Assembly: GCA_044226625.1 (NCBI GenBank)
Contig: JBGAGQ010000003.1
Location: 64,001-128,000 of the forward strand
Origin: Thermoanaerobaculia bacterium
Lineage (GTDB): Bacteria > Acidobacteriota > Thermoanaerobaculia > Multivoradales > UBA5704
Length of the DNA: 64,000 bases
Direction: 5' to 3'
Shown: positions 1-18,907 of the stretch, in pieces
Layout of the letters: each line of letters starts with the position of its first letter
Numbering within the stretch: position 1 is the first letter of the stretch
Notes under the pieces: generated by a model
Seen by the model: the letters and a program-made list of their open reading frames with translations, nothing else
What the model was told of the DNA's origin: nothing
Databases searched by the model: none
Position numbers and translations under genes: made by a program

Positions 1-615
1 GTCCACGAGCTGCTCCATGCCGCCGCCTGCGTGGCCTTCGGCGGCTCGGTCGAGCGCCTGGAGATCGACGGAGCCTACGGAGGGGCCCTGCTGGCCAAGG
101 TCTTCCCGTTCGTCGTCTCGGGCAGCGAATACGCCGGACGCCTTTCGGGGTTCGACACGAACGGAAGCGATCTCGTCTATCTCGCGACCGATCTCGGCCC
201 CTTCCTCCTCGCGCTCTGGCCGGGCGTCTGGCTGCTCCGCCGAGCGGTCTCCCGACGTCGCGCCCTGCTGTTCGGCCTGAGCCTACCCTTCGCGCTCGCG
301 CCGTTCCTTTCGCTCCCCGGAGACGCCTACGAGATCGGCTCGATCGTCGCGACGCGCCTTCCTCCTTGGTGCGAAGCGGCGACCCTCGCGCTACTCCGCG
401 GCGACGACGCGATTCGCAAGCTCGGCGAGTTGCGCGCCGCGTCGTCTCCTTCGATTTGGACGGGATACGGCTTCGCGCTCGTGCTGGGCTTCCTGTGGGC
501 CGAAGCGACGTACGCGCTCGGCGGGTCGATCGCGGGCCGCTTCGGTGAAGAGGCGGTCGAAGCGCGTTCGGTTGGGCCCAAAGCGGGGGCCGAAGAAGGT
601 CCGAGCCCCGGATGA
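1..615 (+). CDS. Membrane protein with HExxH zinc-metalloprotease motif (M50-like), 5'-truncated by the window edge
   Basis: Frame 1 is open from base 1 and reads VHELLHAAAC...; several hydrophobic segments follow; stop TGA at 613-615. Confidence 0.6.
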   Translation, partial: VHELLHAAACVAFGGSVERLEIDGAYGGALLAKVFPFVVSGSEYAGRLSGFDTNGSDLVYLATDLGPFLLALWPGVWLLRRAVSRRRALLFGLSLPFALAPFLSLPGDAYEIGSIVATRLPPWCEAATLALLRGDDAIRKLGELRAASSPSIWTGYGFALVLGFLWAEATYALGGSIAGRFGEEAVEARSVGPKAGAEEGPSPG

Positions 616-636
616 ATAGGAAGGCAAATTTCCCCG

Positions 637-665
637 TTGACAAGCAGTGGGAACGGGCGTAGTTT
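637..665 (+). promoter_or_regulatory. Sigma70-type promoter
   Basis: TTGACA (637-642), 17-nt spacer, TAGTTT (660-665); AGGAG at 686-690 precedes ATG at 697. Confidence 0.65.
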
Positions 666-696
666 GATCTCGTAACGAACGTCCTAGGAGGGCTCG

Positions 697-741
697 ATGA
701 CCACTCCACCGGACCAGAAAAAGCTCCCGCGGTCGAGGTAA
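697..741 (+). CDS. Candidate small ORF MTTPPDQKKLPRSR (14 aa; 31 aa to base 791 if read with a -1 shift)
   Basis: Promoter and AGGAG RBS upstream, terminator downstream; no homology recognised. Confidence 0.3.
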   Translation: MTTPPDQKKLPRSR

Positions 742-868
742 TTCGGGTTCTCGATCTCGGGAGCGAGCCGCTCGGCTGCGGCGTGCGCTAACGCGAAAAC
801 TGGATCGAATGCCCGATTCCAGGCCGACATCGCGAAGCAAGCGAAAGCCAACGCGCCCGGCGCGAACG

Positions 869-907
869 ACGGGAAGGCGAACCGAATCGCCTTCCCGTTT
901 TGCTTTT
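869..907 (+). terminator. Rho-independent terminator
   Basis: 12-bp perfect stem ACGGGAAGGCGA/TCGCCTTCCCGT, 6-nt loop, followed by TTTGCTTTT. Confidence 0.75.
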
Positions 908-1054
908 AGATTTCTATTGCATTTTTCGGAATCGGTTTTACATTTCTGAGGCCGGCTCCGGACTCGAGCCCTGATCGCCGGACCGCTCCCCCGCCCTGGC
1001 AGGGGAAAGCGGCGGCCGTCGTCCGGTTCCGGTGTGCATGCGGCGTCTTCCTGT

Positions 1055-2179
1055 CTAACGCCGTTTCGACTCGTCGGTCGAAAGCTTCTCCCAATCCCCT
1101 TCCGGTGCATCCAAGGCGATCGCGAGTCCGCCGTCCGAGCCGACATAGATGGGATCGCGCACCACCCGGACTTTGCCACCACCCACCGCCTGCAGCTCGC
1201 GCTCGAGGCGAGGCCCGAGACCCCGGATCAAGCCGGTGCCGCCGGAGAGGACGACGTTCTGGCGCACCCGCTCCTGGTATTCGGGATCCACCCGGCTCAA
1301 AAGATCGAACATCGACTCGACGAGCGGCGGCAGGAGCGTCTCGCACGCCTGGCGCATCTCCGCCGTGATGTCGATCCTCGTCGGCTTGCCGGCGACCGGC
1401 GCGGTGACCAGGATCGGCGCGAGCGGCTCGCCGACGAAGCTCCCTTCCTCTTTCCAACCGCGGACCATGTGCAGCGAGATGCTCGCCTGCGGATGGCGCT
1501 CTCGGATCAGGCGGAACAGTTGCTCGTCGATCGAATCTCCCGCCTGGGTAAGGGTCCGCTGGTCGTCCTCCGTCGGCAGGCGCCCCTTCATCACGCAGAT
1601 GTCGGTCGTGCCCGCGCCGATGTCGATGATCATCGTATGGAGGAGCTCCTCGAGCCCGTAGGCGACGGCAAACGGCTCCGAGACGATCAGGAGACTGTCG
1701 GCGATCCCTTGCATGGCCTTGCGCACCTGCTGCTTGTTGACCCGCAGCGCTTCGGCCGGCACGCCGACGACGGCACGGACGTGGAAGCTCGAGCGCTCGG
1801 CCGGGTCGACTCCGGCTAACTGGACGAGATGGCGCAGCAGCTCGCGCACCGCCGCTTCGTCTTTTTCCGAGCCGTCCTTGATCAGCCCCTCTTCGAGCGG
1901 CCGATGCAGGTCGAGCATGGTCCGCTGCTCGAGGGCCTCGCGGCCGATCAGCACGCTCTTCTTGAGCACCTTGCGGGCGACCATGTCGAGCGGCCAACCG
2001 ACGTAGCTTTCGACCACGTGGCGCTGGCCGTTGGAGGCGGAGATCGAGCTCCGGGAGGTGCCGAGGTCGATCCCGACGTGAAGGGCTTGCCGGTCGCCCG
2101 GTTTGCCGCTCGGTCGCTCGCTGGATGGGTCGCTCGGTGGGCGTTCGCTCGGTCGGTCGCTCGAAGGGCGGTCGCTCAT
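1055..2179 (-). CDS. MamK-like bacterial actin homolog (MreB/MamK superfamily), 374 aa
   Basis: Phosphate-1 GIDLGTS, connect-1 VSEPFAVAYG, phosphate-2 IDIGAGTTD, adenosine VVLSGG. Segments such as RAVVGVPA, DQRTLTQAGD, FVG..AGKP, ACETLLP, PEYQ..V.QN and DP..G.DGGL.IA follow MamK as I recall it. ATG 2179 has AAAGGA upstream, 7 nt after the amidase stop. Confidence 0.88.
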   Translation of the reverse strand: MSDRPSSDRPSERPPSDPSSERPSGKPGDRQALHVGIDLGTSRSSISASNGQRHVVESYVGWPLDMVARKVLKKSVLIGREALEQRTMLDLHRPLEEGLIKDGSEKDEAAVRELLRHLVQLAGVDPAERSSFHVRAVVGVPAEALRVNKQQVRKAMQGIADSLLIVSEPFAVAYGLEELLHTMIIDIGAGTTDICVMKGRLPTEDDQRTLTQAGDSIDEQLFRLIRERHPQASISLHMVRGWKEEGSFVGEPLAPILVTAPVAGKPTRIDITAEMRQACETLLPPLVESMFDLLSRVDPEYQERVRQNVVLSGGTGLIRGLGPRLERELQAVGGGKVRVVRDPIYVGSDGGLAIALDAPEGDWEKLSTDESKRR

Positions 2180-2186
2180 GAGGGGG

Positions 2187-3206
2187 TCAGGGTCCTTTCT
2201 CCGTGGCGCTCTCGGCGGCCAGGGCGTAACGGCGCACGCCGCGCGCGAGCGCTTCGGCGATGTATTGGCGGTAAAGGGGCTTCGCGAGCAGCTCGGCCTC
2301 GGTCGGGTTCGAGAGCGAAGAAACCTCGGCGAGCACCGCCGGCATCTCGGTCGACACGAGGACCAGGAAGGGGGCGGTCTTGACGCCTCGGTCGGAGAGG
2401 CCTCCGCCGGACGCGCCGACCGCCGCGGAGGCGCGCGACAGAGAGCTGAACAGGGAGGCGTCGATCGACTCGGCGAGGCGCCGCGAGCTCCCCTGCCGAG
2501 CGCCGGCGTAGACCTGGTCGAGCAGCCGGCGAAAATCGGCGACGGCGTACCCGGAGTCCCGGTTTTCGAGCGCCGCGAGGCGATCGAGCTCCGGATCGTC
2601 GGTCGGTCCGAGATAGTAGGTCTCGACCCCTCGCGTGTTGCCACCGGCGATCCAGTTGAGGTGGATCGAGACGAAGAGATCGGCCCGCGCCTGGTTTGCG
2701 ATCCGCGCGCGATCGCGCAACGAAACGGCCCGATCGTCCTGCCGGGTCATCACGACCTCGAAGGAGGAGGCCGCCAGAAGGCGCTCGAGTCGGCGGCCGA
2801 TGTCGAGCGTGACGTCTTTCTCATAGAGGCCGGTGGCGGCGCGGGTTCCCACCGACGAGCCGCCGTGACCCGGGTCGATCGCGATCTTTCGCACCGCAAG
2901 GGGGAAGACCGACGGATCGATCGGGCGCGGCGCCGACTTTCGAACGTTCTCTGCGACCTCGGGTACGTCGCCCGGCGCGCTCATCGCGACCGAGGCGGTC
3001 GGCGCGACGGGCATCAGCGCGGGAGCGAAGAGGCGGGACGACGCGAGCAACGCCACGGGGAGGAGGGCGAGGGCGAGCAACGAGCTCCCCAAGCGGAGGC
3101 GGCGGCTCCGTTTGAGGGTCTTGTGGGGCGTCCCCCTCACCAGCTCGACGTTCTGATCGACGAGCTCGCGCAGCAAACGCTGCTTTAAGCGATCGACGCG
3201 GGCCAT
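2187..3206 (-). CDS. N-acetylmuramoyl-L-alanine amidase (Amidase_3, AmiA/B/C-like) with N-terminal membrane anchor
   Basis: IAIDPGHGG, EKDVTL, TR..D..VSL..R..IAN, FVSIHLN and PAVLAE Zn-amidase motifs; hydrophobic segment LLALALLPVALLA. Confidence 0.92.
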   Translation of the reverse strand: MARVDRLKQRLLRELVDQNVELVRGTPHKTLKRSRRLRLGSSLLALALLPVALLASSRLFAPALMPVAPTASVAMSAPGDVPEVAENVRKSAPRPIDPSVFPLAVRKIAIDPGHGGSSVGTRAATGLYEKDVTLDIGRRLERLLAASSFEVVMTRQDDRAVSLRDRARIANQARADLFVSIHLNWIAGGNTRGVETYYLGPTDDPELDRLAALENRDSGYAVADFRRLLDQVYAGARQGSSRRLAESIDASLFSSLSRASAAVGASGGGLSDRGVKTAPFLVLVSTEMPAVLAEVSSLSNPTEAELLAKPLYRQYIAEALARGVRRYALAAESATEKGP

Positions 3207-3363
3207 ACGGCGCTTCCCTGCCTCGGCGTCTCCCGGCCAGCTCCTCGGGCGCCGATGCGGCCGCGAAGATCCTCGCGCGCTCGTCGACCCCTGCGAACCG
3301 GGAAAAGAGGGGCGAATCTTACTACTACCCGACTCCTTTGTACGGACCCGTTTGCCGGTCCGA

Positions 3364-5022
3364 CTACTTCGGGCCCAACCGGATCACCAGGTCGCTGCCC
3401 GAGACGCTCACGCTCTTGGCGAAGATCTCCGCACCGGCGAGGTCGAAGACCACGTGCAGCTCGTCCGGGCTGTGGTACCCGATTCGGATCTGCGTCAGCT
3501 CGGGGGTCCCTCCCGCCACTTTGGTCGCCGAATAGGCGTGGCGGATTCCCTTCAAGCGCACCAGCTCCCGCGGCGACCCGGTGTCGATCCGGAAATGGGC
3601 GAAGTTCGACGAGCGGATGATGCCGTCGCCTCGAAGCACCACTTCCGTCTCGCCCGCCAGGGCACGAACCGACACCGATCGAAGCTCGGACAACACCGGC
3701 CGCGGAGCTTCCGCGGCGGGCTCCGCGGTCTTGGCAGGGATGGCGGGGACGGGAGTTGAGGGCGCGCCGGAAGTGGGCGGCAGAGTCGTCGCACCGGGCT
3801 TCGCGGGGGCCGGGGTGGTGGCAGCACTCGGCGCGGCCTCCGGCTTCAAACCGTCCGCCGGCGCCGGCATGGGAGTCTCGGTGGGGGGACTCGCTCCCTG
3901 GGCATTCGGCCCCGGCGGAGCGGCCCCCGCGGCGGAATCGGGCGCGCCTGCGACGGGGCCTCCTGGGCTGGCCGGACCCGCCGCGCCCGGCAAGCTTCGG
4001 TACATCGGCTTCCGCTCCGGATTGGCAAAGGCGGCGGGGAGCGGCTCGGGATCGGACTCGCCGAAGAAGTCGTCCCACCACAGGTCTTTGACCCGCCAGG
4101 CGGCGACGCCTCCCAAGAGGAGCGCGAGAAAGAGGGAAGCCGCGAACCAACGCAGCGGACGCCTCCTCTTCCTCTGCACGCGAGCCGCCGGCTCGGGCGG
4201 GATCAGGGCCCCGGTCGTCGTCGAGGCGGTATCGTCGAGCAGCGAAGGGATCGGCCGGAGCGGCACCTCCGGCGGCGGCGCGAGGATCGGCGTCTTACCG
4301 GCCCAGCTGCGCTCGAGCGGGGGCGGCAGCTCGGGAGGGGGGATCGGCACTGCCGCGGGCGGGGCCGTCTGGGGCAAGGACGGGGGCACGGCGAGCTCGG
4401 GAAAGCGGGCCGCAGGAGCCCGATCCCCTGCGGCCGGCGGACCGCTGCGCGGATCGGTGGTCGGTCGGCTCGCGCGCTCCGCGCCTTCGGCCTCGTCGAC
4501 GCTCGCGGCCGCCTCCTCGAAAAGCCGCAGCAGCCGGTCGGCGTCTCGAATCGGCGGCTCCTGCGGCGCGGGCCGCGCCAGCGGTGGCACGGGGGGCGTC
4601 GTCGGTTTCGGCAGGGTGGCCACCGACGGCGTCGAAGGCGGAATCGGCGGCGAGGGATCGAAGGGGACGCCGCCCGATTGGACGTGGCGGTCGACAACTT
4701 TGTAGATCAGCTCCTTGGCCTGGGGGGTCAGCTCGAGGAAGCGCAGCCCCATCCCGGAAATCTGCGAGGCGTCCGGCGCCGGATCACGGGTCCAGACGAC
4801 CTCGCCCCTCCCTTTGATCAGCTCGAAACCGTCCCCCAGACGGAACTCGAAGTCGACCAGGGTGCCCACGGGCGCGGGCTGCTCGGTTCGAATGAAGATC
4901 CCGCCGGGCGAGATGTTCGCGGAGAACTCGCTGATGAAGCCGCTGAACTTCTCGAACTTGAGCTGAACCCGCGTCTCCAACGGTACCCGTCGGGAGTCGC
5001 GAGGAATCGAAGGATCGAGCAT
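3364..5022 (-). CDS. PilZ-domain (TIGR02266-like) protein with Pro-rich linker, one TM helix and C-terminal AMIN-like domain
   Basis: N-terminal RDSRRVP...NISPGGIFI...G.G.VVW...GMGLRF; TM WFAASLFLALLLGGVAAW; C-terminal PRELVRL..QIRIG..ELHVVFDL. Confidence 0.8.
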   Translation of the reverse strand: MLDPSIPRDSRRVPLETRVQLKFEKFSGFISEFSANISPGGIFIRTEQPAPVGTLVDFEFRLGDGFELIKGRGEVVWTRDPAPDASQISGMGLRFLELTPQAKELIYKVVDRHVQSGGVPFDPSPPIPPSTPSVATLPKPTTPPVPPLARPAPQEPPIRDADRLLRLFEEAAASVDEAEGAERASRPTTDPRSGPPAAGDRAPAARFPELAVPPSLPQTAPPAAVPIPPPELPPPLERSWAGKTPILAPPPEVPLRPIPSLLDDTASTTTGALIPPEPAARVQRKRRRPLRWFAASLFLALLLGGVAAWRVKDLWWDDFFGESDPEPLPAAFANPERKPMYRSLPGAAGPASPGGPVAGAPDSAAGAAPPGPNAQGASPPTETPMPAPADGLKPEAAPSAATTPAPAKPGATTLPPTSGAPSTPVPAIPAKTAEPAAEAPRPVLSELRSVSVRALAGETEVVLRGDGIIRSSNFAHFRIDTGSPRELVRLKGIRHAYSATKVAGGTPELTQIRIGYHSPDELHVVFDLAGAEIFAKSVSVSGSDLVIRLGPK

Positions 5023-5146
5023 CGCCGCCGTACCTCACCGCCGGACGGGCTGGCCGACCGGACGCCTTCGTGAACGCTGGTGAACGGCGAGGATCATAGC
5101 AGGGCGGGGGCGACCGCGGGCCGCCGCCCCCAACCCCGCCCGGAGG

Positions 5147-6529
5147 CTAGAAACCGAGTGACCGCTCGCGGGCCAGGAACGCCAGCACCTGGCGGGCGAG
5201 CTCGACCGTAAGGTTCTCCTGCTCGGCGGCGCGCTGAAACAGAATCAGCGCTCCGAGCGCCTCGCGGTGGACCTCGCGCGACTCGAACAAGGGAAGGATC
5301 TCGATGGCTAGCTGCTTGATCTCCGCGGATCGCCTCTGCTGCGCGTAGAGGGTCGCGAGCTCCAACGTGGCGAGTGCCGCGTCGTACCCCATCCTGTGCT
5401 CGTAGAACTCCGCGCGGACCTCGAGCAACACGCTCTCCGCCTCGTCCTCGTGGCCGAGGCCCGCGGCGATCCGGGCTTCGAGCCAACGGAGCCGAATGCG
5501 ATCGACGGGGCTGGAGAGAACGAAAGCGTCCCGGATCTGGGCCAGGCGTCGCGAGGCCTCGTCAAACCGCCCCACCGCGACCATCGCGAACAGCAAGTTG
5601 TAATGGGCATAGGTCTTCGAGAGCCCGTCGGCCTCCACGTCGAGCGGGCGGCCGGGATCCGCCGCTCGGCTCGAGACGGCCGGAAGGCCCGGGTCGGTCG
5701 AGAGATCCGGAGGTTTCGTATCGCCGGAAGGGATCGCGTCGAGGGCGTCGAACTCGTCGATCAGCCCTTCGAGCTCCGCCAGCGTGCCGTCGAGATCGCC
5801 CATCTCCTCCCGGATCTTCGCTCGGGTGAGACGCACGCGGCGCATCGCTGCCGCCGCCCTGGCCTCGTGGAAGAGGACCATCGCGTCGTCGGCGGCGTCG
5901 AGCGCCTCGGGCAACCTCCGTTGGGCCCGCCGGAGCGCCGCTTGGACATGAAGCAGCTCGCCGCGCACTTCCGGAGCGCCGGTCCCACCTCTCTCGATCA
6001 AGGCGAACGCGGTACGTAGTGCCTGGTCGGCGCCCATCAGCTCGCCGAGCACTCGTCGCGAATTGGCCAGATGACCCCACGCTCTCGCGGTGAGGTCGTG
6101 AACCCAGACCGAGTCGTACACCTCCCCGGAGAGCTGCTCGGCGATCCGGACGGCGAGCTCCGCCCGTTCGACCGCCCGGACCGGCTGCTCGACCACGGCC
6201 CGCTTGCTTTCGCGCAGGAGCAGCGAGCAGAGCGCCCAGGAACGAAAGCTCCCGTCCTTCTCCACCCGGTCGAGCTGGGACGCCAGATCGAGCGGCTCGA
6301 GCTGGGCAAGGAGGCCCGGAGCTTCCCGGCCCTCGAACAGAACGATCGACTCGTTCCAGTGCCCAACCTCCTCCTGCAATGCGCGGAGCTCGGCGAACCG
6401 CTCACCGCAGGCGGCGCAGCTCGCTTCCAGATGCGGGGCGATCTCCCGCACGACATCGTCTTGCGGAAGATCGCCCGCGAGCCACCGGGCCAACGTTTCG
6501 ATCGACAAATGACCTCGTTCCGTCTCCAT
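5147..6529 (-). CDS. TPR-repeat protein with N-terminal zf-HC2-like zinc-binding (anti-sigma-like) domain
   Basis: HLEASCAAC motif after HLS.ETLA; helical repeats ARAWGHLANSRRVLG and LRWLEARIAAGLG..AE..L; GAAGGAGG RBS before ATG 6529. Confidence 0.75.
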   Translation of the reverse strand: METERGHLSIETLARWLAGDLPQDDVVREIAPHLEASCAACGERFAELRALQEEVGHWNESIVLFEGREAPGLLAQLEPLDLASQLDRVEKDGSFRSWALCSLLLRESKRAVVEQPVRAVERAELAVRIAEQLSGEVYDSVWVHDLTARAWGHLANSRRVLGELMGADQALRTAFALIERGGTGAPEVRGELLHVQAALRRAQRRLPEALDAADDAMVLFHEARAAAAMRRVRLTRAKIREEMGDLDGTLAELEGLIDEFDALDAIPSGDTKPPDLSTDPGLPAVSSRAADPGRPLDVEADGLSKTYAHYNLLFAMVAVGRFDEASRRLAQIRDAFVLSSPVDRIRLRWLEARIAAGLGHEDEAESVLLEVRAEFYEHRMGYDAALATLELATLYAQQRRSAEIKQLAIEILPLFESREVHREALGALILFQRAAEQENLTVELARQVLAFLARERSLGF

Positions 6530-6567
6530 CCGGCCTCCTTCAGCCCCAGAGTTCTCTCTCTAGATAC

Positions 6568-6599
6568 CATTGTTGCCGGAAGAAGACATTTCGAGACAA
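6568..6599 (-). promoter_or_regulatory. Bipartite promoter-like motif TTGTCTCG-N16-CAACAATG upstream of the TPR gene
   Basis: Plus strand CATTGTTG (6568-6575), 16 nt, CGAGACAA (6592-6599); same architecture recurs at 6963-6994. Confidence 0.6.
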
Positions 6600-6653
6600 G
6601 ATCTTCCGAAGAAAATTCTCGAAACGACGAACCCAAAGCCGATTTCGACGAAA

Positions 6654-6899
6654 TTAGGGCCGGCCGGCGTCCTCTCTCCATCCCGCGGCGAGCGGGCGGC
6701 CCAAGGGATCAAACGAGCCGCCCTCCTCGGCGAACAGGTGGCGAAGCACGCCTCCAGCCCAGGAAACGAAGCTCCCCCAGCCCGTGCCGACGAGCGAGGG
6801 GAACCCTCTGGAGATCGACAACGCGGAGGCGGGCAGAGGTGCCACGAGCAAACCGGCGAAGACGACGGCGACGAGAGAGCGGGAAAGCCTAGAGCGCAT
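6654..6899 (-). CDS. Small secreted peptide (81 aa) with Sec signal peptide and EEGGSFDPLG motif
   Basis: AAGGAG RBS; MRSRLSRSLVAVVFAGLLVAPLPASA signal with ASA cleavage site; Trp-containing amphipathic segment, then GxxDPxG. Confidence 0.75.
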   Translation of the reverse strand: MRSRLSRSLVAVVFAGLLVAPLPASALSISRGFPSLVGTGWGSFVSWAGGVLRHLFAEEGGSFDPLGRPLAAGWREDAGRP

Positions 6900-17382: not shown

Positions 17383-17994
17383 CTACTTGGTGAAGTCGAC
17401 CTTGGGGGCCGTCTCCGCGCCGGGGGCGGCGGTGAAGTAGGGCCTCGGGGGGAAGTTCCAGCCGAGGATGCCGATGAAAAGGCTCGCCGGGAATTGCTTG
17501 ACGCGGGTGTTGTAGATCTGCGCCTTCTCGTTGAACCGGTTGCGCTCGACGTTGATCCGGTTCTCGCTCCCCTCGATCGAGGCCATCAGGTTCGTGAAGG
17601 CTTCCGTCGAGCGGAGCTGCGGGTACTGCTCGACCACCACCATCAAGCGGGAGAGAGCCGAGGAGAGCCCGTCCTGCGCCTGCTGGAACTGCTGGAACTT
17701 CGCCGGGTCGTTGAGAATCTCGTTCGTCGCCTGGGCCGAGATCTGGCCGACGCGGCTGCGCGCCTCGACCACTTTCGTCAGGGTGTCCTGCTCGAACTGC
17801 GCCGAGCCCTTGACCGTCGCCACGAGGTTGGGAATCAAGTCCGACCGCCGCTGATAGGCGCCCTGAACTTGCGCCCACTGCGTGTCGACGTTTTGCTGCA
17901 GGTCGACCAGGCCGTTGTACTGGCTCACGCTCCACACGGCGCCGAGGCCGAGGACGACCAAAATCGCGATGATGACGCAACCGACCTTACTCAT
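17383..17994 (-). CDS. lemA: LemA family protein
   Basis: N-terminal TM, YQRR.DLIPNLV.TVKG, E.YPQL, EGSENRI.V.R..FN, FP. Confidence 0.93.
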   Translation of the reverse strand: MSKVGCVIIAILVVLGLGAVWSVSQYNGLVDLQQNVDTQWAQVQGAYQRRSDLIPNLVATVKGSAQFEQDTLTKVVEARSRVGQISAQATNEILNDPAKFQQFQQAQDGLSSALSRLMVVVEQYPQLRSTEAFTNLMASIEGSENRINVERNRFNEKAQIYNTRVKQFPASLFIGILGWNFPPRPYFTAAPGAETAPKVDFTK

Positions 17995-18112
17995 CTTGGA
18001 TCTCCTCCGAGAGTGATGCCGCGAACATCCTATCGACGACGATCCTATCGCGAGCCGGCCGGCCGGCGCCGCGGGTTCTCGGGACCTCCCGCGATATGCT
18101 CTCGGCCGCGCC

Positions 18113-18907
18113 GTGCAGACCTACCTCGACCTCCTCCGCTACGTGCTCGACCATGGCGTCCCGAAGGGCGACCGGACGGGAACCGGCACGCTCTCGGTGT
18201 TCGGCTACCAGATGCGGTTCGACCTGGCGGCCGGCTTCCCCCTGGTCACCACGAAAAAGCTCCATCTCAAATCGATCGTCCACGAGCTGCTCTGGTTCCT
18301 CGCCGGCCGGACCGACGTCGCCTGGCTCAACGAGCGCGGCGTGACGATCTGGGACGAATGGGCCGACGAGCGCGGGGATCTCGGTCCGATCTACGGCCGT
18401 CAGTGGCGCTCGTGGCCCGCGCCGGACGGCTCGACGATCGATCAGATCTCGCGAATCATCGAGCAGATCCAGAAGGATCCCAACTCCCGCCGCCTGGTCG
18501 TCTCGGCTTGGAACGTGGGCGAGCTCGACCGGATGCGCCTCGCCCCCTGCCACGCGCTGTTCCAATTCTGGGTCGGCGGGGGCAAGCTCTCCTGTCAGCT
18601 CTACCAGCGGAGTGCCGACCTCTTCCTCGGCGTGCCGTTCAACATCGCCTCCTATGCGCTACTCACGTCGATGGTGGCGCAGGTCTGCGGCCTCGCCCCC
18701 GGCGATTTCGTGCACACCCTCGGCGACGCCCACCTCTACGCGAACCATCTCGACGCGGCCCGGCTCCAGCTCTCCCGGGCGCCGCGGCCGGCGCCCCGCC
18801 TCGAGCTCAACCCGAACGTGCGCTCGATCTTCGACTTCCGGTTCGAGGACGTCGCGATCCACGGCTACGACCCCTACCCCTCGATTCCGGCCCCGATCGC
18901 GGTCTGA
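18113..18907 (+). CDS. thyA: Thymidylate synthase
   Basis: [51 protein letters not shown]. Confidence 0.98.

What the first reader, a model, noticed from the sequence alone, without database searches (positions are those of the whole stretch)
1055..5022. MamK-like actin outside any magnetosome context, linked to a peptidoglycan amidase and a PilZ-TM-AMIN protein
Seen: a 374-aa actin-fold ATPase starts 7 nt after the stop of an Amidase_3 gene, with its RBS inside the amidase 3' end. Upstream on the same strand lies a PilZ/Pro-rich/TM/AMIN protein. No mam/mms or mreCD genes are in the window. Known: by recall, its sequence follows Magnetospirillum MamK (GIDLGTS, VSEPF.V.YGL, DIGAGTTDIC..KG..P..EDQ.TLT.AG, PEYQ..V.QN) more closely than MreB; MamK forms filaments that position organelles; AMIN binds peptidoglycan and normally targets AmiC; PilZ binds c-di-GMP. 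Inference: a cytoskeleton-directed, possibly c-di-GMP-gated, local cell-wall remodelling module (budding, stalk, pole or division) and a possible non-magnetosome role for the MamK clade.
Basis: partly seen in the sequence, partly recalled or inferred. Interest (0 to 1): 0.85.

Follow-up and report, generated by a model that had tools for sequence, protein, structure and literature searches.

The report
Actin-like filament gene paired with wall amidase
A soil acidobacterium carries, beside its normal shape-determining genes, a tightly coupled gene pair for a membrane-anchored cell-wall-cutting enzyme and an actin-like filament protein related to the one that lines up magnetic organelles, and the same pair recurs in many unrelated bacteria, which suggests a so far undescribed way of steering wall cleavage from inside the cell.

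Summary
On the minus strand lie a PilZ–TM–AMIN gene (3364-5022), an Amidase_3 gene (2187-3206) and, 7 nt after its stop, a 374-aa actin-fold gene (1055-2179).

The actin belongs to the MamK family in the wide sense: NCBIfam MamK 376 bits (cut-off 400), BeeR 201, MreB 78. In a tree it lies outside the clade holding magnetosome MamK. The genome has its own mreB-mreC-PBP2-rodA operon, and no MamI, MamP or MamQ match over cut-off.

The core is the amidase–actin pair. The amidase sits directly upstream in 79 of 80 Thermoanaerobaculia loci, in 5 of 5 other acidobacterial genomes, and in 73 of 80 metagenome loci of a sister clade (GC 42-67%). The eight exceptions are all cut by a contig end.

The amidase is bitopic. 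It has a conserved cytoplasmic N-terminal helix motif found once in this genome, a TM helix, an AmiA/B/C-type insertion and intact catalytic residues. The PilZ–TM–AMIN gene is a lineage-specific addition.

Best reading (about 0.55): the filament positions the amidase through its cytoplasmic tail, as bactofilin does with LmdC. Binding is not shown. I found no paper describing this pairing.

The parts
3364..5022 (-). Gene for a 552-aa bitopic protein. Cytoplasmic PilZ domain (aa 8-111, nt 4690-5001), Pro-rich linker, one TM segment (aa 290-311, nt 4090-4155), periplasmic Pro/Ala-rich linker, C-terminal AMIN-fold domain (about aa 445-551, nt 3370-3690). Accessory part, found in most Thermoanaerobaculia loci only.
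   Evidence: PilZ 46.3 bits and TIGR02266 86 bits. RxxxR and [DN]xSxxG present in 55/55 homologues. Same architecture in 54 loci, 384-745 aa. AMIN. Not detected in L086-L093 or in the metagenome loci.
3207..3363 (-). 157-nt spacer between the PilZ-TM-AMIN gene and the amidase gene. Its regulatory content is unknown.
   Evidence: The gap is 12-243 nt in relatives. No sigma-70-like site was found.
2187..3206 (-). Gene for a 339-aa bitopic N-acetylmuramoyl-L-alanine amidase. Conserved cytoplasmic helix (aa 2-24, nt 3135-3203), basic stretch, TM helix (aa 32-56, nt 3039-3113), disordered linker, Amidase_3 domain with an AmiA/B/C-type insertion (aa 107-333, nt 2208-2888).
   Evidence: Amidase_3 160.8 bits. 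Tail conservation, with R6 K8 V16 N19 invariant. AF2 model. Insertion shown by continuous alignment to 3ne8/8c2o/4bin and a split alignment to 4rn7/5emi. H114, E129, H182, E294 kept in all 149 aligned sequences apart from gaps. Tail motif occurs once in the genome.
2180..2202 (-). Gene junction: purine-rich Shine-Dalgarno-like run GGAGAAAGGA (2202-2193) inside the amidase 3' end, TGA (2189-2187), 7-nt spacer (2186-2180).
   Evidence: In relatives the amidase stop lies next to, or overlaps, the start of the actin-like gene.
1055..2179 (-). Gene for a 374-aa MamK-family actin-like ATPase (P0001). It has a 28-aa low-complexity N-terminal extension that close relatives lack.
   Evidence: NCBIfam MamK 376 bits, BeeR 201, MreB 78. 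PDB MamK 281 bits. Tree placement. 77% mean column identity over 29 orthologues, with GIDLGTS, SEPF and DIGAGTTD invariant. Relatives start MSE...
868..899 (.). 13-bp GC-rich hairpin with a T-run in the 439-nt gap between the actin-like gene and a convergent gene. Likely the transcription stop for the convergent pair.

Best explanation
The unit is a two-gene module: a cytoskeleton protein and a wall hydrolase.

The upstream gene makes a bitopic amidase. Its catalytic domain is in the periplasm and is of the auto-inhibited AmiA/B/C type. Its first 25 or so residues form a conserved cytoplasmic helix followed by a basic stretch and a TM helix. The gene that follows it within 7 nt makes a MamK-family actin-like ATPase that polymerises in the cytoplasm.

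I propose that the filament binds the amidase tail. It would thereby fix where along the envelope the amidase sits and cuts peptide stems off the glycan strands, at the septum or at another defined zone. This would work as bactofilin BacA does with the bitopic M23 hydrolase LmdC.

In most Thermoanaerobaculia a third gene adds a bitopic protein. Its cytoplasmic PilZ domain can sense c-di-GMP and its periplasmic AMIN domain binds peptidoglycan. This protein could couple the module to a second-messenger signal and to a particular kind of wall, such as septal wall.

Shown here: the family assignments, the topology features, the conservation of the pair and of the tail motif, and their co-occurrence.

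Inferred: polymerisation, tail-filament contact, the site of action, the c-di-GMP input, and the need for an activator.
For: 1. Family. MamK 376 bits against MreB 78. PDB MamK 281 bits, BeeR 146, MreB 61.6. The nucleotide-binding motifs are invariant in 29 orthologues.

2. Not the rod system. A canonical MreB (526 bits) with mreC, PBP2 and rodA lies on contig C123.

3. Linkage. The amidase lies directly upstream, on the same strand, in:
- 79 of 80 genome loci; L076 starts at the contig edge.
- 5 of 5 acidobacterial genomes outside the class, at 49-65% identity.
- 73 of 80 metagenome loci of the P0004 sister clade, GC 42-67%; the other 7 have under 500 nt upstream.
No third gene family is shared by those 80 loci.

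4. Coupling. The spacer here is 7 nt. In relatives the stop and start adjoin or overlap.

5. A conserved cytoplasmic tail.
- R6, K8, V16 and N19 are invariant in 29 orthologues.
- The same ..K..[IL]L+.[VI][YV]EEN[LV].. motif appears in 49 of 61 distant metagenome amidases. The remaining 12 are near-variants or cut ORFs.
- The motif occurs once in the six-frame translation of the 6.6-Mb genome.
- AF2 predicts helix 2-24 and TM helix 32-56.

6. Co-occurrence in the class sample. 199 of 301 genomes have the actin. All 20 listed genomes without it have only a weak amidase paralogue (best E 1e-19 to 1e-40). Carriers mostly have a match at E 1e-65 or lower, starting at residue 1-7.

7. The enzyme looks active and regulated. 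The four catalytic positions are kept in all 149 sequences. The AmiA/B/C-type insertion is present.

8. Precedent. BacA binds the N-terminal cytoplasmic peptide of bitopic LmdC, and those genes are adjacent in 226 species (PMC10945521, passages read).

9. PilZ motifs are present in 55 of 55 homologues, and the AMIN fold is supported.
Against: - No result here shows that the two proteins touch.
- The tail helix is amphipathic. It could serve dimerisation or membrane contact instead of binding the filament.
- Gene adjacency within one class is partly inherited order. Only the 5 out-of-class genomes and the metagenome clade give more independent support, and that clade's organisms are unnamed.
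- The actin scores under NCBIfam's MamK cut-off, and no member of its clade has been studied, so filament formation is extrapolated from MamK, saltatorellin and BeeR.
- I could not test whether other MamK-like clades (Gemmatimonadota, Verrucomicrobiota and fused forms) have the amidase neighbour.
- 102 of 301 class genomes lack the module, so it is dispensable.
- Expression is not shown. Only small contigs of one RNA library match.
- The tallies include genomes flagged unpublished: G104 and G175; G004, G104, G135, G175 and G179.
Confidence: 0.55

Rival explanations
1. Reverse polarity. The amidase, and where present the AMIN protein, serves mainly as a wall-fixed anchor for the filament. The filament's real task would be to position some other cytoplasmic cargo, such as a storage body, the chromosome or a polar complex, much as MamK positions magnetosomes.
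For: MamK's known role is cargo positioning (passages). The pair is conserved, as is a membrane-spanning partner with a wall-binding domain. AMIN is a wall-binding fold.
Against: All four catalytic positions of the amidase are kept in 149 sequences over deep divergence, which a mere anchor would not need. No candidate cargo gene is conserved beside the pair.
Confidence: 0.15
2. Co-expression without contact. The two proteins act in the same process, such as daughter-cell separation or envelope stress, and are co-transcribed for dosage. The tail helix would serve amidase dimerisation or binding to another partner, for example a divisome protein or an FtsEX-like activator.
For: The tail is an amphipathic helix of the kind that forms coiled coils. 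AmiA/B/C-type enzymes need separate activators (recalled from the literature; the insertion is shown).
Against: The tail-bearing amidase orthologue was seen only where the actin gene is present. The motif persists with the pair across GC 42-67%. No other gene is consistently shared.
Confidence: 0.17
3. It is simply a second MreB, as public databases label it, and guides wall synthesis.
For: Sources name the close relatives 'rod shape-determining protein (MreB)'. Pfam's best hit is MreB_Mbl at 85 bits.
Against: MreB models score 78 bits (cut-off 293) against 376 for MamK. The tree separates it from the genome's own MreB by the longest branch. mreC, PBP2 and rodA sit with the other gene.
Confidence: 0.03
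4. It is a remnant or part of a magnetosome-like organelle system.
For: MamK-family sequence. A LemA-family gene (MamQ model 100.5 bits) lies 15 kb away at window 17383-18120.
Against: MamQ 100.5 bits against a cut-off of 250. MamP 26 bits against 300. No MamI match, though that model rang in no control genome either. The same LemA search also rings in E. coli and others. The protein is outside the clade holding MamK-like of Paramagnetospirillum. Only 3 Mam models were tried.
Confidence: 0.02

Closest known systems
MamK, the magnetosome actin of Magnetospirillum/Paramagnetospirillum (PDB 5ljw, 5jyg; NCBIfam NF040964)
   Same: Full-length alignment over residues 29-367 at 281 bits, with the same nucleotide-binding motifs. 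It is the best-scoring family model.
   Different: Scores 376 bits against a cut-off of 400. Branches outside the clade that holds MamK-like of P. magneticum and the other members scoring 400 or more. Is not encoded among mam genes and is always paired with an amidase.
Bactofilin BacA with the bitopic M23 endopeptidase LmdC (Hyphomonas neptunium, Rhodospirillum rubrum; PMC10945521)
   Same: A cytoplasmic polymer gene lies adjacent to a gene for a bitopic wall hydrolase that has a short conserved N-terminal cytoplasmic tail. The adjacency is conserved over many taxa (one search compared).
   Different: The polymer here is an ATP-dependent actin fold, not a bactofilin. The hydrolase is an Amidase_3, not an M23 peptidase. 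The tail is a predicted helix, not a beta-hairpin. Binding is proven there and not here.
Other non-magnetosome MamK relatives: saltatorellin (Saltatorellota, 10.1101/817700), BeeR (Verrucomicrobiota, PMC11929497, PDB 8r2n) and mamK-like ORFs of Beggiatoaceae/Thiomargarita (10.1101/2022.04.11.487978)
   Same: Actin-like proteins nearest to MamK in bacteria without magnetosomes. Filament formation was shown for saltatorellin and BeeR (passages).
   Different: BeeR scores only 201 bits here and forms a separate clade. None of the passages I read reports an amidase neighbour. In Thiomargarita the reported neighbour is a flotillin-like gene. I had no saltatorellin sequence, so its place in my tree is unknown.
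Cell-separation amidases AmiA/AmiB/AmiC (PDB 8c2o, 3ne8, 4bin)
   Same: Amidase_3 fold with the extra regulatory insertion, aligned continuously over residues 107-329. Catalytic positions are kept.
   Different: No exported N-terminal targeting domain: the AMIN domain sits on a separate protein. Instead there is a cytoplasmic helix plus a TM anchor. Scores are far under the NCBIfam equivalog cut-offs (95 of 400, 83 of 532, 77 of 700).
MreB with RodZ and the elongasome
   Same: An actin-fold filament linked through bitopic membrane proteins to periplasmic wall enzymes (the general principle, recalled).
   Different: That system directs synthesis, and it is present separately in this genome. The partner here is a hydrolase encoded next to the actin gene.

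Membership tests
MamK family (NCBIfam NF040964) | Whole-protein score at or above the curated cut-off of 400 bits | tested here: not met
   376 bits. Clade mates P0002 score 392.7 and P0004 425.2.
MamK family (NCBIfam NF040964) | Closer to MamK than to MreB, BeeR, FtsA or ParM-like actins | tested here: met
   MamK 376, BeeR 201, MreB 78 bits. PDB 281, 146 and 61.6 bits. Lies inside the 73-row MamK sensu lato group (SH-aLRT 97) with the BeeR-like clade outside. FtsA and Alp7A appear only as weak Pfam hits. No ParM sequence was placed in the tree.
Magnetosome MamK (functional group) | Branches within the clade of MamK from magnetotactic bacteria | tested here: not met
   The 13-row clade with P0080 (MamK-like of P. 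magneticum) and P0029 is separate. The window protein is in an 11-row acidobacterial clade (100) that is sister to the P0004 group. The tree is a quick search with SH-aLRT support only, and only one row carries a magnetotactic organism's name.
Magnetosome MamK (functional group) | Encoded with other mam genes | tested here: not met
   Genome-wide: MamP 26 bits of 300, MamQ 100.5 of 250, MamI none. The MamI model rang in no control genome. MamA, B, E, L, M and O were not searched. The neighbours here are an amidase and a PilZ protein.
Actin-fold ATPase that forms filaments | Phosphate-binding and catalytic motifs present; polymerises with ATP | tested here: inconclusive
   GIDLGTS, SEPF and DIGAGTTD are invariant in 29 orthologues and align with MamK's. 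The role of MamK E143 and D161 is recalled, not tested. Polymerisation is not testable with these tools.
MreB (NF010539 / TIGR00904) | Score over the cut-off and association with mreCD, PBP2 and rodA | tested here: not met
   78 bits of 293 and 66 of 366. The true MreB (526.6 bits) lies at C123 with mreC, PBP2 and rodA.
BeeR (NF053558) | Score over the cut-off of 530 bits | tested here: not met
   201 bits. Separate clade.
Amidase_3 N-acetylmuramoyl-L-alanine amidase (PF01520) | Domain over the gathering score; metal ligands and catalytic Glu present | tested here: met
   160.8 bits of 27. H114, E129, H182 and E294 kept in all 149 aligned sequences apart from gaps. The assignment of these residues as ligands and catalytic residue is recalled.
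AmiA/B/C-type regulated amidases | Extra insertion that holds the auto-inhibitory helix | tested here: met
   The Pfam match spans 218 residues for 174 model positions. Alignment is continuous to 3ne8, 8c2o and 4bin but split around query 207-269 against 4rn7 and 5emi. Helices 205-262 appear in the model. Whether the helix blocks the site was not examined.
AmiA/B/C-type regulated amidases | Exported soluble enzyme, AmiC/AmiB with an N-terminal AMIN targeting domain; equivalog score | tested here: not met
   Cytoplasmic helix plus TM instead. No AMIN in this protein. NCBIfam scores 95 of 400, 83 of 532 and 77 of 700.
PilZ c-di-GMP receptor domain (PF07238 / TIGR02266) | Domain over cut-off, with RxxxR and [D/N]xSxxG motifs | tested here: met
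   46.3 bits of 22.5 and 86 of 68.7. Both motifs are in 55 of 55 homologues. The motif definitions are recalled. Ligand binding is not testable here.
AMIN domain (PF11741) | Pfam gathering score | tested here: not met
   16.5 bits of 20.5 for the window protein. 13 of 27 relatives match at E up to 1, with a best E of 5.3e-5.
AMIN domain (PF11741) | AMIN fold | tested here: met
   Model pLDDT 93. Foldseek top hits are AmiC 4bin (E 3e-4, TMq 0.64), PilQ 3jc8 and PilQ B2 4aqz. A profile hit to PilQ residues 193-299 has E 8.8e-6.
Cytoskeleton-hydrolase morphogenetic module (BacA-LmdC type) | Conserved adjacency of a polymer gene and a bitopic hydrolase gene with a conserved cytoplasmic tail | tested here: met
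   79 of 80, 5 of 5 and 73 of 80 loci, with every exception at a contig end. Tail motif.
Cytoskeleton-hydrolase morphogenetic module (BacA-LmdC type) | Direct binding of the tail to the polymer | not testable with these tools
   Needs a binding assay or a localisation experiment.

The most novel reading that the evidence does not exclude
A large clade of the MamK family, spread over several phyla, may be a dedicated wall-hydrolase cytoskeleton. In this reading the actin filament exists to place a membrane-anchored amidase through a conserved cytoplasmic peptide. That would make it a third actin-based wall system beside MreB (synthesis) and FtsA (division). Magnetosome MamK could then be a branch of an older envelope-associated actin that was recruited to hold invaginated membrane organelles. 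In Thermoanaerobaculia the system has additionally been wired to c-di-GMP through a PilZ-TM-AMIN adaptor.
Probability: 0.35. Interest if true: 0.85.

Novelty: new variant of a known kind. Interest (0 to 1): 0.7.

Why it matters
1. It would give a function to the many MamK-like actins of non-magnetotactic bacteria, whose roles are open. The saltatorellin and BeeR papers say so in the passages I read.

2. It would extend the principle of a cytoplasmic polymer steering a bitopic wall hydrolase through its tail. That principle is established for bactofilin and an M23 peptidase. Here it would apply to an actin and an amidase. The 25-residue motif with four invariant positions makes this directly testable.

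3. It touches the origin of the magnetosome cytoskeleton.

4. There is a practical consequence for annotation and surveys.
- Public records call these proteins MreB.
- Some clade members pass NCBI's MamK cut-off: P0004 scores 425 bits, and its relatives carry names from Nitrospira, Desulfobulbaceae and Syntrophobacteraceae.
- mamK is used as a marker gene for magnetotactic bacteria (10.1101/682252).
- An adjacent tail-bearing amidase is a simple flag for the non-magnetosome kind.

Tried and rejected
- Co-folding of the actin core (aa 29-374) with the amidase tail (aa 1-40). Two jobs using alignments failed. The third, without alignments, returned 'no answer': score 0.83, but a control with the actin replaced by an unrelated protein scored 0.66. 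I do not count it either way.
- An alignment of 15 diverse MamK-like representatives was too divergent for the metagenome scan. I then used the single protein P0004. Other MamK-like clades (Gemmatimonadota P0022, Verrucomicrobiota P0012 and the fused forms) were therefore not examined for neighbours.
- I guessed NCBIfam accessions next to NF040964 to reach other Mam models. NF040962 (near_HgcAB) and NF040967 (cytc_ExtN) turned out to be unrelated. MamA, B, E, L, M and O were not searched.
- The N-terminal parts of the 700-1232-aa proteins that end in a MamK-like domain have no Pfam domain, so they give no fusion clue.
- Cluster look-ups gave names for few representatives, so most tree rows are unlabelled.
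- RNA evidence. One metatranscriptome run (X6) holds small contigs matching 2026-2181, 4600-4751, 4916-5066 and 1030-1180. These are contigs from a library that may contain DNA, and they cover little. I do not use them as proof of expression or of co-transcription. Uncovered parts mean nothing.
- No sigma-70-like promoter was found in 600-6700. This scan is uninformative for this phylum.
- The 460-aa gene upstream (5147-6529) has no family match. It keeps its place only in some relatives, so I left it out of the module.
- The convergent HExxH membrane protein (window 1-615) is a frequent neighbour in Thermoanaerobaculia. It lies on the other strand and is not shared by the metagenome loci, so I left it out too.
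- Supplementary files of the papers were not opened. The saltatorellin and BeeR supplements may hold neighbourhood data that I could not see.

Full report
**What is in the sequence.**
All three genes of the finding lie on the minus strand.
- The ORF 3364-5022 gives a 552-aa protein.
- The ORF 2187-3206 gives a 339-aa protein.
- Its TGA (2189-2187) is followed by seven bases, and the ATG at 2179 opens a 374-aa ORF that ends at 1055.
- A GGAGAAAGGA run lies at 2202-2193, inside the end of the amidase gene.

The window is positions 64001-128000 of contig C81 of a 6.6-Mb assembly in 133 contigs (97.9% complete, 5.5% contamination). Downstream of the actin-like gene there is a 439-nt gap with a 13-bp hairpin terminator (868-899). 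Beyond it lies a convergent gene for a membrane protein with an HExxH motif (window 1-615). The operon therefore ends with the actin-like gene.

**The actin-like protein.**
- Pfam reports MreB_Mbl (85 bits) and Actin (52 bits).
- NCBIfam separates the subfamilies: MamK 376 bits (cut-off 400), BeeR 201 (cut-off 530), MreB 78 (cut-off 293).
- Among solved structures, MamK of Magnetospirillum (5ljw, 5jyg, 5ljv) aligns over residues 29-367 at about 280 bits. BeeR (8r2n) scores 146 and MreB (1jce) 61.6.
- GIDLGTS, SEPF and DIGAGTTD are invariant in 29 orthologues. They align with the matching MamK motifs. By my recollection these include the residues mutated in ATPase-deficient MamK.

The genome has a canonical MreB elsewhere (C123, 526.6 bits), followed by mreC, a PBP2-type transpeptidase and rodA.

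**Tree of the family.**
I built a tree of 81 rows. The rows were:
- 69 near-full-length representatives from a search of 1.84 billion cluster representatives. That search gave 1426 hits at E up to 0.001 and 190 at E up to 1e-30.
- 10 acidobacterial locus proteins.
- The window protein.
- The genome's own MreB, used as root.

Representatives without a near-full-length actin domain were left out. The method was IQ-TREE quick search, LG+G4, with SH-aLRT support only.

The results:
- A 7-row clade is BeeR-like. Its members P0103 and P0114 score 506 and 386 bits on the BeeR model.
- The remaining 73 rows form one group (support 97).
- Inside it, a 13-row clade (97) holds P0080, the 'MamK-like protein' of Paramagnetospirillum magneticum. 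It also holds P0029 (508 bits on the MamK model) and an FtsZ-MamK fusion.
- Every member of that clade that I scored reaches 400 bits or more.
- The window protein lies elsewhere, in an 11-row acidobacterial clade (100).
- This clade is sister to a group of P0004, L091 and L092, and together they make 14 rows (99).

So the protein is a MamK relative. It is not MreB, and it is not inside the clade that holds the one row named from a magnetotactic organism.

**Mam genes.**
Whole-genome searches with three Mam models gave the following:
- MamP: best 26 bits against a cut-off of 300.
- MamI: no match, but this model rang in no control genome, so the negative is weak.
- MamQ: 100.5 bits against 250. 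This is a LemA-family gene at window 17383-18120, and the same search also rings in E. coli and other controls.

Other Mam models were not searched.

**Conservation of the pair.**
A scan of one genome per species found 193 relatives of the actin-like protein. The best 80 (L009-L088, 69-96% identity) are all MAGs labelled Thermoanaerobaculia, Holophagales or Acidobacteriota.
- In 79 of the 80, the amidase lies directly upstream on the same strand. The eightieth (L076) starts at base 9 of its contig.
- The amidase stop lies within about 90 nt of the first aligned actin residue in 83 of the 84 loci measured (190 nt in L078), and the two genes often overlap.
- In a sample of the class, 199 of 301 genomes (70 of 107 genera) carry the actin. 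Some families lack it entirely, for example f15 at 0 of 43.
- In a sample of the phylum, 34 of 401 genomes carry it, five of them outside the class. All five have the amidase directly upstream, at 49-65% actin identity.

To leave the phylum, I scanned metagenome contigs with P0004, the sister-group representative. Its cluster includes a Nitrospira MAG protein.
- The 80 loci returned (L094-L173) have GC contents of 42-67%. Their actins are 46-55% identical to the window's.
- In 73 of them the amidase is directly upstream.
- The other 7 have under 500 nt of sequence before the actin core.
- Clustering all ORFs of these loci found no third family shared by more than a small minority, apart from overlapping spurious frames.
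- Relatives of P0004 carry MAG names from Nitrospira, Defluviicoccus, Desulfobulbaceae, Syntrophobacteraceae and Hyphomicrobium.

That those named proteins are amidase-linked is inferred from clade membership. I did not check it one by one.

**The amidase.**
It has a full Amidase_3 domain (160.8 bits). Residues H114, E129, H182 and E294 are, by recollection of the family, the metal ligands and the catalytic glutamate. They are kept in all 149 aligned sequences, and the only departures are gaps in cut ORFs.

The Pfam match spans 218 residues for 174 model positions. Alignments to short amidases (4rn7, 5emi) break around residues 207-269. Alignments to AmiB (3ne8), AmiA (8c2o) and AmiC (4bin) run through. 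The enzyme therefore has the insertion that, in those enzymes, carries the auto-inhibitory helix (recalled).

Unlike them it has no export-type N-terminus.
- The AlphaFold model (pLDDT 76) predicts a helix at 2-24, a second helix at 32-56 that is the hydrophobic anchor, a disordered linker, and then the catalytic domain.
- The first helix is conserved. The consensus is M-A-N-V-D-R-x-K-R-x-L-L-R-x-L-V-Q-E-N-V-D-L-I-x-G, with R6, K8, V16 and N19 invariant in 29 orthologues.
- The distant metagenome amidases show the same pattern: ..K..ILRGVYEENLRI.., then basic residues, then a hydrophobic segment.
- A strict pattern finds it in 49 of the 61 that have at least 100 residues before the catalytic domain. 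The other 12 are near-variants or wrongly started or cut ORFs.
- The same pattern occurs exactly once in the six-frame translation of the whole genome, in this gene.

The genome's two other Amidase_3 genes lie elsewhere. One, on C125, encodes a 595-aa protein next to a Germane-domain gene.

In the class sample every genome has some amidase match. But the 20 genomes listed without the actin have a single weak match (E 1e-19 to 1e-40). Carriers mostly have a second, strong match (E 1e-65 or lower) that aligns from residue 1-7. The tail-bearing amidase and the actin thus appear and disappear together. These tallies include genomes flagged unpublished: G104 and G175; G004, G104, G135, G175 and G179.

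**The third gene.**
The 552-aa protein has these parts:
- An N-terminal PilZ domain (46.3 bits; TIGR02266 86 bits). The RxxxR and [D/N]xSxxG motifs are kept in 55 of 55 homologues.
- A proline-rich linker.
- One hydrophobic segment.
- A second linker.
- A C-terminal all-beta domain.

Pfam AMIN is sub-threshold for the window protein (16.5 of 20.5 bits). Other evidence supports the assignment:
- 13 of 27 relatives match at E up to 1.
- A profile of the domain finds the third AMIN repeat of Myxococcus PilQ (E 8.8e-6).
- The model (pLDDT 93) finds AmiC 4bin and two PilQ AMIN structures as its best three Foldseek hits.

The architecture is the same in 54 loci, with lengths of 384-745 aa. The gene is not core. 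Neither domain was detected upstream of the amidase in L086-L093, and in six of these the upstream ORF has another Pfam family instead: Laminin_G_3, a dicarboxylate symporter, ABC_tran_2, a dehydrogenase or TPR. No hit appears in the 80 metagenome loci either.

**How it most likely works.**
The topology puts the amidase tail and the PilZ domain in the cytoplasm with the actin-like protein. The catalytic and AMIN domains are in the periplasm with the wall.

The simplest account of four observations is that the filament binds the tail and so sets where the amidase acts:
- The strict pairing.
- The 7-nt gene junction, overlapping in relatives.
- The conserved cytoplasmic peptide.
- The joint presence and absence.

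The published precedent is bactofilin BacA. It binds the N-terminal cytoplasmic peptide (aa 1-38) of the bitopic M23 peptidase LmdC with a KD of about 15 µM, and recruits it in Rhodospirillum rubrum. Those genes are adjacent in 226 species (PMC10945521, passages read).

The insertion in the amidase suggests that placement alone is not enough and that an activator is needed. Which one is unknown. In Thermoanaerobaculia, the PilZ-TM-AMIN protein could add a c-di-GMP input and a preference for a kind of wall. AMIN is known from septal targeting of AmiC and PilQ (recalled).

I rate this reading at about 0.55. The rivals are:
- The amidase acts as an anchor for a cargo-positioning filament.
- Co-expression without contact.
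- A second MreB.
- A magnetosome-like system.

These are set out with their tests in the Rival explanations section.

**What is known and what is new.**
MamK homologues in non-magnetotactic bacteria are in print:
- A preprint on mamK as a marker gene cites Lefèvre et al. 2013 for them (10.1101/682252, passage).
- Saltatorellin of Saltatorellota forms filaments in E. coli and Magnetospirillum (10.1101/817700, passages).
- BeeR of Verrucomicrobiota forms three-stranded tubes (PMC11929497, passages).
- Thiomargarita has mamK homologues beside a flotillin-like gene (10.1101/2022.04.11.487978, passage).

None of the passages I read mentions an amidase.
- A full-text search for 'MamK' with 'N-acetylmuramoyl-L-alanine amidase' found 0 papers.
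- 'MamK' with 'amidase' found 2, neither with either term in its title or abstract; I judged them from the listing only.
- A search for 'Thermoanaerobaculia' with 'actin' gave only word-start noise.

Within that library I therefore find no description of the pairing. Subscription journals and supplements were not covered. Public records label these proteins MreB.

**Verdict.**
- The clade is not that of magnetosome MamK.
- The core is the pair, not the trio.
- Non-magnetosome relatives are already known.

The mechanism remains an inference. I file the finding as a new variant of a known kind, a cytoskeleton-guided wall hydrolase, with interest 0.7.

Noticed in passing
Proteins P0013, P0016-P0020, P0023, P0024, P0026, P0028, P0031, P0034, P0038: A well-supported 14-row clade of MamK-like domains sits at the C-terminus of proteins of 523-1232 aa. 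In the 7 of these that I scanned, the long N-terminal part matches no Pfam family. Sources and hosts are unnamed.
   Followed up: partly
Protein P0071 (768 aa): A single protein joins a complete FtsZ (Tubulin plus FtsZ_C) to a MamK domain. It branches with the clade that holds MamK-like of Paramagnetospirillum.
   Followed up: no
window 2095-2179 (minus strand), N-terminus of the actin-like protein: This genome has a 28-residue insertion of Ser/Asp/Arg/Pro-rich repeats (SDRP-like) right after the start codon. The closest relatives begin MSERQALHVG. Other lineages have short, charged, variable N-termini. BeeR's hallmark is also a disordered N-terminal extension.
   Followed up: partly
window 1-615 (+), continuing from G000:C81:63836: A convergent 259-aa membrane protein with an HELLH motif. 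It has weak Peptidase_M50B (19 bits) and DUF3267 hits and keeps this position in most Thermoanaerobaculia loci. Whether it is related to the module is unknown.
   Followed up: partly
window 5147-6529 (-): A 460-aa protein with a Cys-rich N-terminus and weak TPR-like hits only. It is directly upstream of the PilZ gene in the closest relatives (up to 72% identity). Many other loci have only a 26-30% identical copy on the opposite strand downstream.
   Followed up: partly
window 17383-18120 (-): A LemA-family gene (174 bits) that scores 100.5 bits on NCBIfam's MamQ model, well under the cut-off. It shows how generic relatives of Mam proteins can mislead.
   Followed up: yes
G000:C125:51373-53160 (L175:2373-4160, minus): The genome's other strong Amidase_3 gene encodes a 595-aa protein with a long N-terminal part. 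It overlaps or adjoins an ORF with a Germane (GerMN) domain.
   Followed up: no
P0004, P0009, P0022: Some MamK-like proteins outside the clade with the named magnetotactic row pass NCBIfam's MamK cut-off (425, 420 and 412 bits). They are named 'MamK family actin-like protein' in MAGs of Nitrospira and Desulfobulbaceae. This is relevant where mamK serves as a marker for magnetotactic bacteria.
   Followed up: partly
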